From positions 9,062-73,061 of the forward strand of contig DATFRZ010000063.1 of assembly GCA_035262885.1 (NCBI GenBank): a DNA stretch of 64,000 bases, in the 5' to 3' direction. Positions 12,751-16,469 of this stretch are shown in pieces (positions within the stretch are counted from its first letter, which is position 1; each line of letters opens with the position of its first letter). Under the pieces are notes generated by a model. It worked only from the letters and a program-made list of their open reading frames with translations, was not told the origin of the DNA and searched no databases. This stretch comes from Candidatus Acidiferrum sp. (GTDB taxonomy: Bacteria; Acidobacteriota; Terriglobia; Acidiferrales; UBA7541). The position numbers were made by a program, and so were the translations under genes.

Positions 12751-13113
12751 TCATACCCGGGATTCCGGAAAACTTTGTAACGCCTCTTCTTCGCTCGGGA
12801 ATTCAGGGAAAACCCTGAATAGCTGGGTAATCTTCAGAACCTCTTCCACCTTCGCCGACAAACCGACCACTTTCATCTCGCCGCCCTTTTTCACCACGGA
12901 AACGTAGCTTCGGGCCAATTCCCCGATTCCCGAGCTGTCCAGATAGTCCAGGGCCCCCAGATTCAACACCACTTTCTTGCGGCCTTCCTCTAAGAGCCGC
13001 GTAATGGCATCTCGTAGTGCGCTAACCTCGAACGACGTCAGCCGTCCGGCAATATCAAGGACAGTGACTTCACTTCTTTTTCGAATGGAAATCGTGAATG
13101 AGCGGTGCGGCAA
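12751..13113 (-). CDS. STAS-domain anti-sigma-factor antagonist
   Basis: VVLNLGALDYLDSSGIGEL phospho-Ser motif. Confidence 0.9.
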   Translation of the reverse strand: MPHRSFTISIRKRSEVTVLDIAGRLTSFEVSALRDAITRLLEEGRKKVVLNLGALDYLDSSGIGELARSYVSVVKKGGEMKVVGLSAKVEEVLKITQLFRVFPEFPSEEEALQSFPESRV

Positions 13114-13413
13114 CGTGGGTCCTCTCCGCTGGGAAAAAGATTGTACTGCGAGAACCGGTCAATGTGGAGATAACTTCCTCCGGCGCGGAACTTCGCGACA
13201 TTATTGCCGCATAACCACGTGCAGGCCACGCCTCCAACTTTTTGCCATGCCCACGCACGCGAGTTCAAGTTCCGGCCACAAAAATCTCAAAATTTCATGC
13301 GTCGAAGGGTGGAAGCGCAGCGCTGGCGCCACAAGATACACGAGCGGAGGAATCTGCTGAAGTTCGACCCCGGGAAAATAGCCGTAACGCGAGATCTCTC
13401 GGCGTTCCAGGTG

Positions 13414-14157
13414 CTATCGGCCAACCATCAACCGCTGAACCAGCGGCTCGGGAAGGCGAGCGGAACGCATTCGTTTTTGCACTGCCGGGATGTCGTAGGG
13501 CACGCGCCAGAATTGCACCACGTTGTGCTCGAGGTCGGCGATGGCAAAGGCTGCGCGCGGGTCTCCGTCGCGCGGCTGCCCAATCGAGCCGGGATTCAAT
13601 AAATACCGCCGCGCGGGCTCGACGCGCAGCGCGGCATAGGATTCTGCCGGGCGCGGCCGGATCTGTAACACCTCCAGCTGCGAATCTCGATACGAAAAAC
13701 CTCCTTGATGATGGGTGTGCCCAAAAAACGTGACTAAGGCGTTCGAATCCAGCAACCCATCGAGCGCTTGTTCCGGTGTGAATACATATTCATCTTCGTC
13801 CTGAAGCGCGCCGTGAACGAGCACGACCCCGTCCGACTCCAGCGGTCCTTTGGGCAAAGCCGAGAGCCACGCCATGTGCTCCGCTTTGAGTTCCGTTCGC
13901 GTCCAATCGACTGCCGCCTTTGCCACCGGATTGAAATCTTCAGTGGCCATTAAACCGGTCACTGCTTTGTCGTGATTGCCTCGGATCGTCTTTGTGCCCA
14001 ATTCGCGCAGCTTCGCCGTAACGTAATTTGGGTCCGGGCCATAGCCGACCACGTCCCCCAAGCAAACCGAAGAGTCCCAATGGTCCTTGGCCGCATCAAG
14101 AACAGAATCTAGCGCCGTGCCGTTCGAATGCAAATCGCTCAGAATCAGAATCCGCAT
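13414..14157 (-). CDS. Metallophosphoesterase family protein
   Basis: SDLHSN, LGDVVGYG, RGNHD, GHTH, NPGSIGQPRDGDPRA. Confidence 0.92.
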   Translation of the reverse strand: MRILILSDLHSNGTALDSVLDAAKDHWDSSVCLGDVVGYGPDPNYVTAKLRELGTKTIRGNHDKAVTGLMATEDFNPVAKAAVDWTRTELKAEHMAWLSALPKGPLESDGVVLVHGALQDEDEYVFTPEQALDGLLDSNALVTFFGHTHHQGGFSYRDSQLEVLQIRPRPAESYAALRVEPARRYLLNPGSIGQPRDGDPRAAFAIADLEHNVVQFWRVPYDIPAVQKRMRSARLPEPLVQRLMVGR

Positions 14158-14393
14158 CGTGGTCCTTGAAAAAAATGACCTAGAGTATAAATGAACAAGC
14201 TAGCCCATGCACGAAGCGATGAAACCTATGTGAAGAACGGCAATCCAATCTCTCGGAGGGGTTGTGGGTTGTCTTCTAATTCTTTTTTAGGTGAATTTTA
14301 TTCTCAAGAGCGGAAAAGATTCTTTTTTGAGGGAAAAGCAATCTCTCCAGCCGCAATTTTCTGCATCTTTGCAAGATTTTATTGAAAACCGGC

Positions 14394-14421
14394 GAAACAT
14401 TCCCCACGGTAATTTCGTCTA
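14394..14421 (+). promoter_or_regulatory. ECF-sigma-like promoter
   Basis: GAAAC-N17-CGTCTA about 225 nt upstream of ATG 14647. Confidence 0.45.
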
Positions 14422-14465
14422 TACAGGCGCAGCTCCTTACCGGGCTTGCTAAAGGCGAGATTCAG

Positions 14466-14494
14466 AAAAAACCCCGCGGTGGCAGCCGCGGGGT
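14466..14494 (-). terminator. Intrinsic terminator (minus strand)
   Basis: accccgcgg-ctgcca-ccgcggggt followed by a T run on the minus strand. Confidence 0.75.
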
Positions 14495-14546
14495 CATGAC
14501 ACGCAATCTTTCCGGCCGTTAGTCCAGGAAGAAGAGGTGTCTTCAT
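14466..14546 (-). ncRNA. Candidate ~80-nt small RNA
   Basis: Bounded by TTGACA-N17-TAGTCT (14580-14552) and a terminator hairpin plus T6 (14494-14466); internal imperfect hairpin. Confidence 0.55.
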
Positions 14547-14551
14547 GGCGG

Positions 14552-14580
14552 AGACTACCCGTCCGCCCCCTGCGTGTCAA
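14552..14580 (-). promoter_or_regulatory. Sigma70-type promoter
   Basis: Perfect TTGACA, 17-nt spacer, TAGTCT. Confidence 0.65.
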
Positions 14581-14646
14581 CTCATTCTTGCCGCGGCATC
14601 CTGCTATCGGCTGACTCGATCCTGTTCCGAAAGGAATTTGACACGC

Positions 14647-14979
14647 ATGAGAAACAACTCCTTTTTCCGCTGCGTGGCCCTGCTCGCCGCCATCGCGCTG
14701 GCAGTGCCCGTTTTCGCCAAGCCCTTTTCCAAGAATATTAGCCTCGCTCAAACCGCTAAACTCGGCAAAGCCGAGCTCCAGGCCGGCGAGTATCGCCTGC
14801 TGATCGACGGCAACAAAGCCACCGTGCAGAAGGGCGGCAAAGTGGTTGCCGAATCCGAAGGACGCTGGGAAGACCGCAGCGCCAAATCCAGTTACGACTC
14901 CGTGCTCATCAGCGAAAATGGCCAGGTGAAGGAAGTTCGTTTTTCCGGCCAGTCTCGGGTATTTGTCTTCAGTGAGTAG
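14647..14979 (+). CDS. Small secreted beta-rich protein of unknown function
   Basis: RBS aagga at 14631; signal peptide MRNNSFFRCVALLAAIALAVPVFA; LQAGEY motif. Confidence 0.8.
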   Translation: MRNNSFFRCVALLAAIALAVPVFAKPFSKNISLAQTAKLGKAELQAGEYRLLIDGNKATVQKGGKVVAESEGRWEDRSAKSSYDSVLISENGQVKEVRFSGQSRVFVFSE

Positions 14980-15019
14980 GATCTCTTCTTTAACCCCTTT
15001 CCCAGCGACGAGAGAGAGG

Positions 15020-15043
15020 GAGGCTGCAGCCCGCCGCAGCCTC
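15020..15043. terminator. Hairpin between convergent genes
   Basis: gaggctgc/gcagcctc 8-bp stem. Confidence 0.45.
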
Positions 15044-15090
15044 TCACTTGTCCAATCCTTTTCTAGAAATTCGTCCTGCTTCTCCCTTGC

Positions 15091-16188
15091 TCACCGAATC
15101 AGCATGCAATCTCCGTAGCTATAGAATCGGTAGCCTGCTTCGACCGCGTGCCGGTAAGCTGCAAGAACATTTTCGCGGCCGGCAAACGCGCATACCAACG
15201 CCAGCAGTGTGGACCGCGGTAAGTGAAAGTTGGTCAGCAGGCAGGTGACGACGCGAAAACGAAATCCGGGCGTGATGAACAACTTTGCTTCGGCCTTTCC
15301 GGCGCTCACGACGGTCGAAGACCCTGATTCCGCCGCGCGCACGGCCGAATCTTCCAATGCCCGCACGACCGTCGTTCCAACGGCGAAAACCGGGCGTCCC
15401 TCCGCGTTCGCGGCATTGATCCGTTCGGCTGTTTCACGTGGAACTTCATAAGATTCGGAATGCATCACGTGGCCTTCCAGCGTTTCCCCATGAATTGGCT
15501 GAAACGTGCCAAGCCCCACATCCAGCGTTAGCTCGCAGATCTCCGCACCTCGCGCGCGGATTCGTTCCAGTATTTCCTCGGAAAAATGTAGACCCGCGGT
15601 CGGCGCAGCAATCGCGCCGGGATTCTTCGCAAAAAGGGTTTGATAGCGCTCCCGATCCGCCGTTTCCTCCGCGCGTTCAATGTACGGGGGCAGCGGCACG
15701 TGTCCCAGCCGCTCCAAATGTTCGTTCATCGTCCTCTGGTCGCGAGAAACGAACCGCAGTGTTCGCAGGCCGAATTTCCCTCGCGTGGTTATTTCGGCCT
15801 CCAACTCGCCTTCGCCAAAAAGAACACGCTCCCCAAGGTGCATCTTGCGCCCTGGCCGGACCAGCGCCTCCCAAGTGTCATCCTTGATACGGCGCGTTAG
15901 CAGGATCTCGACTTTCCCGGTCAAGTGCTCGCCTCGCGTAGACCGGGAAGGCTTCTGCGAGTGCACCCCCGCGCGCCGTCCAAAAAGCCGTGCGGGAATC
16001 ACCCGGGCGTCGTTCAAAACCAGGAGCTCATTGCCTGCAAGAAGATCCGGGAATTCCGCAAATTCCCGATCCCCGAACTCGCCCGAAGAACGATTCAAGA
16101 GCAGGAGGCGCGAGGCATCTCGGCGGTCTAGGGGCCGCTGCGCGATTCGCTCTGGTGGCAGGTAGTAGTCAAGCTCGTCCGGGCGCAT
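15091..16188 (-). CDS. queA: S-adenosylmethionine:tRNA ribosyltransferase-isomerase
   Basis: DYYLPPERIAQRP, VIPARLFG, PLPPYI, AAPTAGLHF, AVGTTVVRALE, TNFHLPRSTL, YRFYSYGD; start trimmed to ATG 16188. Confidence 0.96.
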   Translation of the reverse strand: MRPDELDYYLPPERIAQRPLDRRDASRLLLLNRSSGEFGDREFAEFPDLLAGNELLVLNDARVIPARLFGRRAGVHSQKPSRSTRGEHLTGKVEILLTRRIKDDTWEALVRPGRKMHLGERVLFGEGELEAEITTRGKFGLRTLRFVSRDQRTMNEHLERLGHVPLPPYIERAEETADRERYQTLFAKNPGAIAAPTAGLHFSEEILERIRARGAEICELTLDVGLGTFQPIHGETLEGHVMHSESYEVPRETAERINAANAEGRPVFAVGTTVVRALEDSAVRAAESGSSTVVSAGKAEAKLFITPGFRFRVVTCLLTNFHLPRSTLLALVCAFAGRENVLAAYRHAVEAGYRFYSYGDCMLIR

Positions 16189-16469
16189 GAGCAGCCATAA
16201 GTCTAACAAGAACCTCCCACCGATTTGCGAACCTGAGCCTGCGGCGGCCTCCGGATGGTCTGGACTCTTCCCTCTTCTGGAACCTCGTAGCGTCACCCCT
16301 TTCCAAGGCCAGTGATTCCTTCGCATGACTAGCTTGCGCTGCAAGCTCGCTTGCAAGTGACCGCGCGGGGCAACCACCTCACATCTGATTCATTCATTGC
16401 GGGCGGGCTTAGGCTCCAGAATTCCACTATCTTATTGTATATAAGCTACTTGTAGTAAGACATAAAGTT

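What the first reader, a model, noticed from the sequence alone, without database searches (positions are those of the whole stretch)
14394..14649. Candidate antisense sRNA and three-element RNA switch at the start codon of a secreted-protein gene
Seen: (a) a minus-strand unit with TTGACA-N17-TAGTCT, about 80 nt of structured sequence including CCUCUUCUUCCU, and an intrinsic terminator; (b) an opposing ECF-like promoter at 14394 whose ~220-nt leader would overlap it fully; (c) TGACACGCA three times within 150 nt: A 14497-14505 (+), B 14571-14580 (inverted, also the sRNA -35 box) and C 14638-14647 (+, ending on the A of the ATG); (d) the RBS sits in a ttcc-GAAA-ggaa hairpin (14625-14636). Inference: in the leader, B pairs with either A (start free) or C (start blocked). 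The antisense RNA covers A and itself carries UGCGUGUCA complementary to C, so it would favour OFF either way. This resembles type I toxin-antitoxin logic but controls a signal-peptide protein. Alternative: the three copies are DNA operator sites.
Basis: partly seen in the sequence, partly recalled or inferred. Interest (0 to 1): 0.72.

Follow-up and report, generated by a model that had tools for sequence, protein, structure and literature searches.

The report
Antisense sRNA inside an ECF-driven leader
In the uncultured soil genus Candidatus Acidoferrum, a small secreted-protein gene is preceded by a conserved stress-sigma-type promoter and a long leader that contains, on the opposite strand, a conserved ~83-nt small RNA gene; the leader can fold back over its own start codon, so this looks like an undescribed but fairly conventional antisense-RNA control module.

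Summary

- **sRNA gene (minus strand, ~83 nt, 14546->14464).** It hits in 140 of 151 genomes of the genus. It has TTGACA, a 17/18-nt spacer of free sequence, a TANNNT -10 box, two stems and a U-tailed terminator.
- **Plus-strand promoter.** GAAAC-N17-CGTC precedes it in all 157 loci that could be scored. It would give a ~221-nt leader fully complementary to the sRNA.
- **Gene order.** Phosphoesterase / module / queA is fixed.
- **TGACACGCA.** The three copies are the only ones in the window.
  - A is the 3' strand of the sRNA's own stem.
  - B is the sRNA -35 box plus 3-4 nt.
  - C abuts the ATG.
- **B':C helix.** A leader helix closing the start region is the best-supported pairing. It has a compensatory C-G to U-A change in at least three lineages, and different but still complementary sequences in two sister genera.
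- **A-versus-C switch.** It is plausible in folding models only.
- **RBS mini-hairpin.** Not conserved.

There is no Rfam family and no paper. No expression data exist. The scan noted an orphan copy of this sRNA in another genome.

The parts
14394..14424 (+). ECF-sigma-type promoter: GAAAC (14394-14398), 17-nt spacer, CGTC (14416-14419), extended -10 region TTCGTCTATAC
   Evidence: GAAAC-N17-CGTC is present, always with a 17-nt spacer of free sequence, in all 157 loci that could be scored. The consensus is GAAACATT / (T/C)TCGTCTATAC. The same motif drives a second conserved small RNA in the genus.
14426..14646 (+). Predicted ~221-nt 5' leader of the secreted-protein mRNA. The start point is inferred and not mapped.
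   Evidence: It is conserved at DNA level from the promoter to the ORF end in 23 of 24 congeners. No other promoter-like site lies between B and the ATG (reading).
14429..14449 (+). 5'-terminal hairpin of the leader (GCAGC / GCUGC). The same GCAGC can also pair with the distal GGCUG box.
   Evidence: Complementarity is conserved in 135 leaders, with some G-C / G-U / A-U exchange.
14464..14546 (-). Small RNA, ~83 nt. P1 is GACAC/GUGUC. P2 is UCUU.CCUGG/CCGG.AAGA with a variable 8-nt loop. A terminator follows.
   Evidence: The covariance model hits 140 of 151 genus genomes, mostly as a single copy. On 77 distinct sequences 98.5% of cells are paired, and 10 pairs have changes on both sides. The G-U pairs would be C-A mismatches on the other strand. 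MFE z is -4.1. No Rfam family reaches its gathering score.
14466..14495 (-). Intrinsic terminator of the sRNA (stem 14472-14493, U tail 14471-14466)
   Evidence: The stem is nearly invariant, and there are 5 or more U in 133 of 134 leaders. On the plus strand no U run follows it, so plus-strand transcription should read through.
14552..14580 (-). Sigma-70-type promoter of the sRNA: -35 TTGACA (14580-14575), 17-nt spacer, -10 TAGTCT (14557-14552)
   Evidence: TTGACA is present in 134 of 135 leaders. The spacer is 17 nt (101) or 18 nt (33) and its sequence is free. The -10 box keeps TANNNT through 12 different hexamers. The promoter is also present upstream of the model hits in sister genera, although the model does not include it.
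14526..14537 (-). CU-rich stretch CCUCUUCUUCCU of the sRNA; most of it is the 5' strand of P2
   Evidence: It is conserved but largely base-paired in the predicted fold.
14497..14505 (+). Element A (TGACACGCA). On the minus strand it is the 3' strand of sRNA stem P1.
14571..14580 (+). Element B' (TGCGTGTCAA). It is the plus-strand copy of the sRNA -35 box plus 3-4 further nt, and lies outside the sRNA-covered part of the leader.
   Evidence: GTGTCAA is invariant, the G two positions upstream is kept in at least 90%, and the position between is C or T. It is complementary to C and to A.
14608..14622 (+). Conserved leader box CGGCTGACTCGATCC; role unknown
   Evidence: It is complementary to the leader's 5' GCAGC and to CAGCCG in the mirror of the terminator.
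14629..14636 (+). Shine-Dalgarno region GAAAGGAA. In this window it sits in a ttcc-GAAA-ggaa hairpin.
   Evidence: GAAAGG is conserved. The hairpin is not.
14638..14647 (+). Element C (TTGACACGCA), ending on the A of the ATG
   Evidence: It is kept in most leaders, altered in some and lost in a small subclade (L014, L011, L102).
14647..14979 (+). Gene for a 110-aa protein with a signal peptide (..VFA/KP..) and an all-beta mature part; function unknown
   Evidence: It is adjacent to the sRNA in every genus locus, with the ATG 89-126 nt beyond the sRNA 5' end. Alignment A4. No Pfam or NCBIfam family. The AlphaFold model has pLDDT 83, and no PDB match stands out.

Best explanation
This is a conserved chromosomal control module of Candidatus Acidoferrum (Acidobacteriota subdivision 2), also found in at least two sister genera.

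**The parts**
- An ECF-sigma-type promoter transcribes a ~221-nt leader and the gene of a small secreted beta protein.
- Inside the leader, on the other strand, a housekeeping-type promoter makes an ~83-nt terminated RNA. This RNA is perfectly complementary to leader positions ~+39 to +121.

**The leader on its own**
- It carries a stretch B', which is the transcript of the sRNA's own -35 box plus a few nt.
- B' can pair with the 9 nt just before the AUG (C) and so close the start region.
- In Acidoferrum proper, B' can instead pair with an identical 9-mer (A) that lies inside the sRNA target.

**Most likely working**
1. The sRNA, made constitutively, captures leaky or low-level leader transcripts by loop-loop contact and full duplex formation.
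2. This removes A as a partner, so B' closes the start codon.
3. The long duplex is a likely RNase III substrate.
4. When the ECF sigma is switched on, leader transcripts outnumber the sRNA, and transcription across the sRNA promoter may also reduce its firing. The protein is then made.

**Shown by comparison:** both promoters, the terminator, the sRNA fold, the fixed gene order and the B':C complementarity.

**Inferred:** that both RNAs are made, that they pair, the OFF direction, RNase III, and the threshold behaviour.
For: **The sRNA gene**
- The covariance model finds one copy in 140 of 151 genus genomes, and in 78 of 81 high-quality ones.
- The promoter shows the signature of function, not of RNA: TTGACA in 134 of 135, a spacer of 17 or 18 nt with free sequence, and TANNNT kept through 12 different hexamers.
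- The terminator has a U tail in 133 of 134.
- The stems are 98.5% paired, with 10 pairs changed on both sides. G-U pairs (8-57 in 14 sequences, 64-87 in 47) fit only the minus strand.
- The hairpin loop is the least conserved part. This suits a cis-antisense RNA, whose complementarity is automatic, better than a trans seed.

**The plus-strand promoter**
- GAAAC-N17-CGTC is present in 157 of 157 scorable loci, with a variable spacer sequence.
- The two most divergent congeners carry TGAAC-N17-CGTC.
- The same extended motif precedes a second, highly conserved ~70-nt hairpin RNA in 55 of 60 other congeners searched.

**The locus**
- Phosphoesterase(-) / module / queA(-) is found in 119 of 133 loci.
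- The whole module is duplicated as a unit in G255.

**The B':C helix**
- The core is 91% paired. One pair reads C-G 49, U-A 15, U-G 5.
- The U-A state appears at three separate places on a CDS tree.
- Sister genera keep complementarity with other sequences: CGGACGU/ACGUCCG in G284, and GCAGCC..UGUCA / UGACA..GGUUGC in G255. Both have a duplex p of 0.007 against shuffles. The sRNA-to-start pairing is not significant there.

**The switch**
- In 134 leaders, P(B':C) exceeds 0.5 in 43% and P(B':A) exceeds 0.5 in 50%.
- Masking the sRNA site raises mean P(B':C) from 0.36 to 0.61 and lowers the unpaired fraction of SD-AUG from 0.38 to 0.29.
- In this window, the leader alone prefers A:B' by 3.3 kcal/mol. 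The cofold with the sRNA gives an 83-bp duplex plus B':C.

**Specificity**
- TGACACGC at a start codon occurs only at this gene in the assembly.
Against: - There are no transcript data of any kind. The genus is uncultured, and the paper library holds nothing on its RNAs.
- Most stems are invariant, so much of the structural support is thermodynamic.
- The covariation in B':C rests on one position and few events. There are also uncompensated changes: C-A in about 5 sequences, a central U-U in one clade, and C lost altogether in L014/L011/L102 and in copy 1 of G255.
- A's conservation is explained by the sRNA's own stem, so the third element of the switch has no independent support. A:B' is weak in genus g14.
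- The predicted balance between B':A and B':C shifts with the chosen 3' end of the folded RNA (disagree for this window).
- One genome (G223) keeps the sRNA between the same flanking genes without the secreted-protein gene or the ECF promoter. The sRNA can therefore exist without this target.
- The cognate sigma factor was not identified.
Confidence: 0.55

Rival explanations
1. The sRNA is mainly a trans-acting regulator of other mRNAs. Its overlap with the leader serves at most as a sponge that the ECF response uses to titrate it.
For: - An orphan copy lies between the same flanking genes, without the secreted-protein gene or the ECF promoter, in G223.
- A similar orphan was noted by the scan in another genome.
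- The CU-rich stretch resembles anti-Shine-Dalgarno seeds. It gives weak Rfam likeness to Betaproteobacteria_toxic_sRNA and anti-hemB (21.7 and 19.6 bits).
Against: - The CU-rich stretch is mostly paired in P2, and the only loop is the least conserved part.
- The other conserved single-stranded motif has no further start-codon match in the assembly.
- In 130 or more loci the sRNA and the gene stay together, and they duplicate together.
Confidence: 0.2
2. The three TGACAC(GCA) copies are DNA operator sites of a transcription factor that controls both promoters. No RNA switch exists.
For: - There are three copies of one 9-mer within 150 bp, and one overlaps the sRNA -35 box.
- Concerted change of B and C, and of all three copies in L089, would also fit a factor with altered specificity.
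Against: - The copies form inverted pairs 57-65 bp apart rather than a compact palindrome.
- A and the core of B are already explained by the sRNA stem and by the -35 hexamer.
- In sister genera the part of B' outside the -35 box and the start region stay complementary while sharing no motif with Acidoferrum. This fits pairing, not a shared binding site.
- Where B' carries U, the partner is G (wobble) or A.
Confidence: 0.1
3. Control is by transcriptional interference between the two convergent promoters only. The RNA-RNA complementarity has no function of its own.
For: The two promoters face each other about 160 bp apart. ECF-driven polymerases must cross the sRNA promoter. The sRNA terminator stops about 45 nt short of the ECF promoter (coordinates).
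Against: Interference alone does not explain three things: the conserved sRNA fold, the B':C complementarity, and a well-formed terminator that yields a discrete stable RNA.
Confidence: 0.1
4. There is no minus-strand RNA. The conserved block is a structured element of the plus-strand leader, and the promoter and terminator look-alikes are by-products.
For: Nearly all stems are invariant, so they fold on either strand. No expression data exist.
Against: - G-U pairs become C-A mismatches on the plus strand.
- The TANNNT and fixed-spacer pattern and the U tail are constraints at DNA and terminator level.
- The unit survives without any leader in G223.
Confidence: 0.05

Closest known systems
[quoted passage not shown]
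   Same: A small RNA is made from inside the leader on the opposite strand. The leader has mutually exclusive helices. Antisense binding to the upstream partner frees the middle element to form the inhibitory downstream helix.
   Different: - The inhibitory helix here closes a start codon and is not followed by a U run, so the output would be translational, not termination.
- The locus is chromosomal.
- The target promoter is of ECF type.
- The middle element is the transcript of the antisense RNA's own -35 box.
bsrG/SR4 of Bacillus subtilis (PMC3834814)
   Same: A cis-encoded antisense RNA binds away from the ribosome-binding site. This changes the mRNA structure so that a helix over the Shine-Dalgarno sequence is extended. 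It also promotes decay.
   Different: - SR4 overlaps the 3' end of a toxin mRNA, whereas here the overlap is in the 5' leader.
- The product here is not a small hydrophobic toxin.
- Nothing here has been tested experimentally.
hok/sok-type type I toxin-antitoxin loci (my own knowledge)
   Same: An antisense RNA acts against the 5' part of an mRNA whose long-range pairings decide whether the start is open.
   Different: - There is no small membrane toxin, no leader ORF coupling and no plasmid or prophage context.
- The locus is a fixed core-genome site.
Envelope-stress sigma-E regulons with their own small RNAs (MicA, RybB; PMC1851643 for MicA)
   Same: An ECF-type promoter motif is shared by a protein gene and by a small structured RNA (the second element found).
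   Different: In this locus the sRNA is driven by a housekeeping-type promoter and opposes the ECF transcript. No sigma factor has been assigned.
Rfam RF02278 Betaproteobacteria_toxic_sRNA and RF02837 anti-hemB
   Same: Both are short RNAs with a CU-rich stretch followed by a GC-rich terminator.
   Different: The scores are 21.7 and 19.6 bits against gathering scores of 50 and 49.5. The likeness is of composition and terminator only.

Membership tests
cis-encoded antisense RNA to a 5' UTR | Own promoter on the strand opposite to the target | tested here: met
   TTGACA-N17/18-TANNNT is conserved as a pattern, with free spacer and variable -10 letters, in 134 of 135 leaders.
cis-encoded antisense RNA to a 5' UTR | Defined 3' end giving a discrete small RNA | tested here: met
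   An intrinsic terminator with 5 or more U is present in 133 of 134.
cis-encoded antisense RNA to a 5' UTR | The opposite strand is transcribed as part of an mRNA | tested here: inconclusive
   An ECF-type promoter is conserved upstream in 157 of 157 loci, and no plus-strand terminator or second promoter lies in between. No transcript has been mapped.
cis-encoded antisense RNA to a 5' UTR | Both RNAs are expressed and the antisense RNA changes target expression | not testable with these tools
   The genus is uncultured and no RNA data are held.
ECF-sigma-dependent promoter | AAC in the -35 element and CGT in the -10 element at 16-17 nt spacing | tested here: met
   GAAAC-N17-CGTC. That this is the ECF signature is from my own knowledge of the ECF literature.
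ECF-sigma-dependent promoter | The motif recurs at other conserved targets in the same genomes | tested here: met
   A second conserved RNA lies behind (A/G)GAAAC(A/T)TTT..CGTCTATAC in 55 of 60 other congeners searched.
ECF-sigma-dependent promoter | A cognate sigma / anti-sigma pair, often autoregulated from the same motif | tested here: inconclusive
   Of 38 sigma-70 region-2 genes in G126, 30 were inspected. None has the extended motif upstream.
pT181-type antisense attenuation | Mutually exclusive leader helices, one partner lying in the antisense target | tested here: inconclusive
   Present in folding models of Acidoferrum leaders. A:B' lacks independent covariation and is weak in genus g14.
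pT181-type antisense attenuation | The inhibitory helix is an intrinsic terminator | tested here: not met
   B':C is followed by AUGAGAAAC.., not a U run.
Type I toxin-antitoxin | The target encodes a small (usually under 60 aa) hydrophobic toxic peptide | tested here: not met
   The product is 110 aa with a cleavable signal peptide and an all-beta mature part.
Rfam families RF02278 / RF02837 | Score at or above the gathering threshold | tested here: not met
   21.7 against 50 bits, and 19.6 against 49.5 bits.

The most novel reading that the evidence does not exclude
The -35 box of a small-RNA promoter has a second job. Read on the other strand as part of the ECF-driven leader, it is the anti-start-codon arm of a translational switch. 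The small RNA made from that same promoter flips the switch by taking away the competing arm. Together with the second ECF-dependent RNA, this would be the first described RNA-based layer of an ECF stress response in Acidobacteriota.
Probability: 0.3. Interest if true: 0.7.

Novelty: new variant of a known kind. Interest (0 to 1): 0.55.

Why it matters
Acidobacteriota are among the most abundant soil bacteria, yet almost nothing is known about their RNA regulators. This module is core to a genus of more than 150 species-level genomes. It gives a concrete, testable example of how an ECF response is buffered at the RNA level. It also shows an economical design in which one DNA stretch serves as a promoter element on one strand and as a regulatory RNA arm on the other. 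The secreted protein it controls has no known family or fold, so the regulation is also a first lead to when that protein is needed.

Tried and rejected
- **Rfam.** An E-value scan of 13000-16000 found nothing near any gathering score. The second RNA also has no match.
- **Coding potential of the sRNA.** The 55-aa ORF from 14546 and a mini-ORF at 14496 are not kept in relatives. Start codons are absent and indels shift the frame.
- **In-frame upstream ATG at 14545 for the protein.** Not conserved.
- **A second promoter between B and the ATG.** None was found by scan or by eye. I also considered sigma-54 and sigma-70 readings of the GGCTGACTCGATCC box and dropped them.
- **Trans targets of the GCGUGUCA motif.** There are no other start-codon sites in the assembly, and controls give more.
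- **Cognate sigma.**
  - The GAAAC-N17-CGTCTA hit upstream of a 184-aa ORF turned out to be a DinB_2 protein.
  - No sigma gene of G126 among the 30 inspected has the extended motif.
- **Column-pair covariation scan of the whole leader.** It was dominated by phylogenetic signal from one clade and I did not use it beyond helix-level stacks.
- **Fold of the secreted protein.** Foldseek found no PDB match at E <= 0.001. The best VIA-align Z was 4.2, over 37-70 residues.
- **Weak model hit in G296 (31 bits).** It has no promoter and lies in coding-like sequence, so I treat it as false.

Full report
**What is in the window**

Reading 14100-14900 confirms each item of the finding.
- On the minus strand, TTGACA (14580-14575) is followed by 17 nt, then TAGTCT (14557-14552).
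- About 83 nt follow, ending in a GC-rich hairpin (14495-14470) and a U run.
- On the plus strand, GAAAC (14394-14398), 17 nt and CGTC (14416-14419) lie 221-230 nt before an ATG at 14647.
- That ATG opens a 110-codon ORF with a signal peptide.
- TGACACGCA occurs three times here and nowhere else in the 64 kb. The expected count is 0.42, and 0 of 100 shuffles reach three.
- The ttcc-GAAA-ggaa hairpin is at 14625-14636.
- The flanking genes are a calcineurin-like phosphoesterase (13414-14157, minus) and queA (15091-16377, minus).

**Organism and distribution**

The window lies in a 62%-complete assembly. Contig titles of close relatives name Candidatus Acidoferrum / Acidiferrum, Acidobacteriota subdivision 2.

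The DNA from the plus-strand promoter to the ORF end is conserved in 23 of 24 congeners and in no other family of the order.

I built a covariance model of the minus-strand RNA.
- It finds one copy in 140 of 151 genomes of the genus, and in 78 of 81 high-quality ones.
- Outside the genus it finds only members of the same family.
- One unpublished genome (G080, locus L028) is among the 89 aligned hits and the 135 leaders. No claim depends on it.

**The small RNA gene is real as a gene**

Across 135 distinct leaders:
- the -35 hexamer is TTGACA in 134;
- the spacer is 17 nt (101) or 18 nt (33), with free sequence;
- the -10 hexamer keeps T-A-N-N-N-T through 12 different versions;
- the terminator has at least five U in 133 of 134.

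This is the pattern of promoter and terminator function, not of RNA sequence conservation.

The RNA folds into P1 (GACAC/GUGUC), P2 and the terminator, at -35.4 kcal/mol and z -4.1. On 77 distinct sequences, 98.5% of cells pair and 10 pairs change on both sides. The G-U pairs (14 at pair 8-57, 47 at pair 64-87) would be C-A mismatches on the other strand.

No Rfam family comes near its threshold. No paper in the library deals with RNAs of this group.

**The plus-strand promoter is equally well kept**

GAAAC-N17-CGTC is present in all 157 loci with enough flank. The spacer is always 17 nt, with variable sequence. The two most divergent congeners carry TGAAC-N17-CGTC. The AAC...CGT signature is that of ECF sigma factors (my own knowledge).

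The same extended motif precedes a second, very well conserved ~70-nt hairpin RNA, with compensatory changes in its stem. It is found in 55 of 60 other congeners searched and was not found in this incomplete assembly. It has no Rfam match. The motif therefore defines a small regulon.

I could not assign the sigma factor.

**The locus**

Phosphoesterase / module / queA is the order in 119 of 133 loci. The ATG always lies 89-126 nt beyond the sRNA 5' end.
- In G255 the whole module is tandemly duplicated.
- In G277 it is complete.
- In G223 the sRNA with its promoter sits between the same two genes, without the secreted-protein gene or the ECF promoter. A homologue of the protein with a decayed upstream remnant lies elsewhere.

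**The three repeats**

- **A** is the 3' strand of the sRNA's P1 stem, so its conservation needs no further reason.
- **B** is the -35 box plus G-(C/T)-G. The extra letters are conserved although the rest of the spacer is free.
- **C** fills the space between the Shine-Dalgarno sequence and the ATG.

In the plus-strand leader B' can pair with C.
- The 7-bp core is paired in 91% of cells. One pair reads C-G 49, U-A 15, U-G 5.
- The U-A state appears in three separate places on a CDS tree. In one, a sister keeps the uncompensated C-A.
- The sister genera keep complementarity between the stretch next to the -35 copy and the start region, but with unrelated sequences:
  - CGGACGU/ACGUCCG in G284;
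  - GCAGCC..UGUCA with UGACA..GGUUGC in G255;
  - GCAUGU/ACAUGC in G277.
- The first two are significant against shuffles (p 0.007).
- The pairing of the sRNA's own motif with the start region is not significant there.

Against this:
- several leaders carry uncompensated changes;
- one clade has a central U-U;
- a small subclade and one G255 copy have lost C.

A:B' is 93.5% paired, but it is broken at the variable position in 15 of 77 sequences and is weak in genus g14.

**Does the sRNA flip a switch?**

In partition-function models of 134 leaders, B' pairs with C (P > 0.5) in 43% and with A in 50%. Masking the sRNA target raises mean P(B':C) from 0.36 to 0.61. It lowers the unpaired fraction of the SD-AUG region from 0.38 to 0.29.

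For this window:
- the leader alone prefers A:B' by 3.3 kcal/mol;
- the cofold with the sRNA gives the full 83-bp duplex, with B':C closing the start.

With a slightly shorter 3' end, the same leader preferred B':C. The balance is therefore delicate and the models cannot settle it.

Only the B':C arm has comparative support.

**What is not supported**

- The RBS mini-hairpin forms fully in only 5 of 135 leaders.
- The sRNA's GCGUGUCA has no other start-codon match in the assembly.
- The product is not toxin-like. It is a 110-aa secreted all-beta protein with no family and no clear fold match.

**Verdict**

The locus holds:
- a well-supported, undescribed sRNA gene lying antisense within a well-supported ECF-type leader;
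- a probable start-codon-closing helix whose upstream arm is the transcript of the sRNA's -35 box;
- a plausible but unproven three-element switch.

It is a new variant of cis-antisense control rather than a new kind of system.

Noticed in passing
L189:1500-1600 (G126), likewise L236-L247; not found in this assembly: A second genus-wide element: the same ECF-type promoter, (A/G)GAAAC(A/T)TTT..CGTCTATAC, is followed by a ~70-nt RNA, GCAAGACCACUCGCGGGGUAGGAG..CUCCUACCCC. Its stem shows compensatory changes. There is no ORF and no Rfam match. This is a candidate ECF-dependent sRNA.
   Followed up: partly
L055:1501-1620 (G223, genus g14): An orphan copy of the sRNA, with its TTGACA-N17-TAGTCT promoter, lies between the phosphoesterase gene and queA. 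It has no secreted-protein gene and no ECF promoter. The protein's homologue lies on another contig behind a decayed remnant of the terminator.
   Followed up: partly
L233 / L234 (G255, genus g14): The whole module (ECF promoter, antisense sRNA, secreted-protein gene) is tandemly duplicated. Only the upstream copy keeps B'-to-start complementarity.
   Followed up: partly
window 14608-14622 (+): A conserved leader box, CGGCTGACTCGATCC, has no known role. It is complementary both to the leader's 5' GCAGC (14430-14434) and to CAGCCG (14483-14488) in the mirror of the terminator. GGCUGAC also occurs in the loop of the second ECF-dependent RNA.
   Followed up: partly
window 14671-14676 (+): A fourth B'-like stretch (TGCGTG, codons 9-10) pairs with C in the minimum-energy fold of this window's leader. 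It depends on a Cys codon that relatives lack, so it is probably specific to this window.
   Followed up: partly
window 14647-14979 (+): The secreted 110-aa protein is confidently modelled (pLDDT 83) as an all-beta domain. It has no Pfam or NCBIfam family and no convincing PDB neighbour. Its invariant residues include G40, G47, Y49, W74, E75, R77, K80, E96 and R98.
   Followed up: partly
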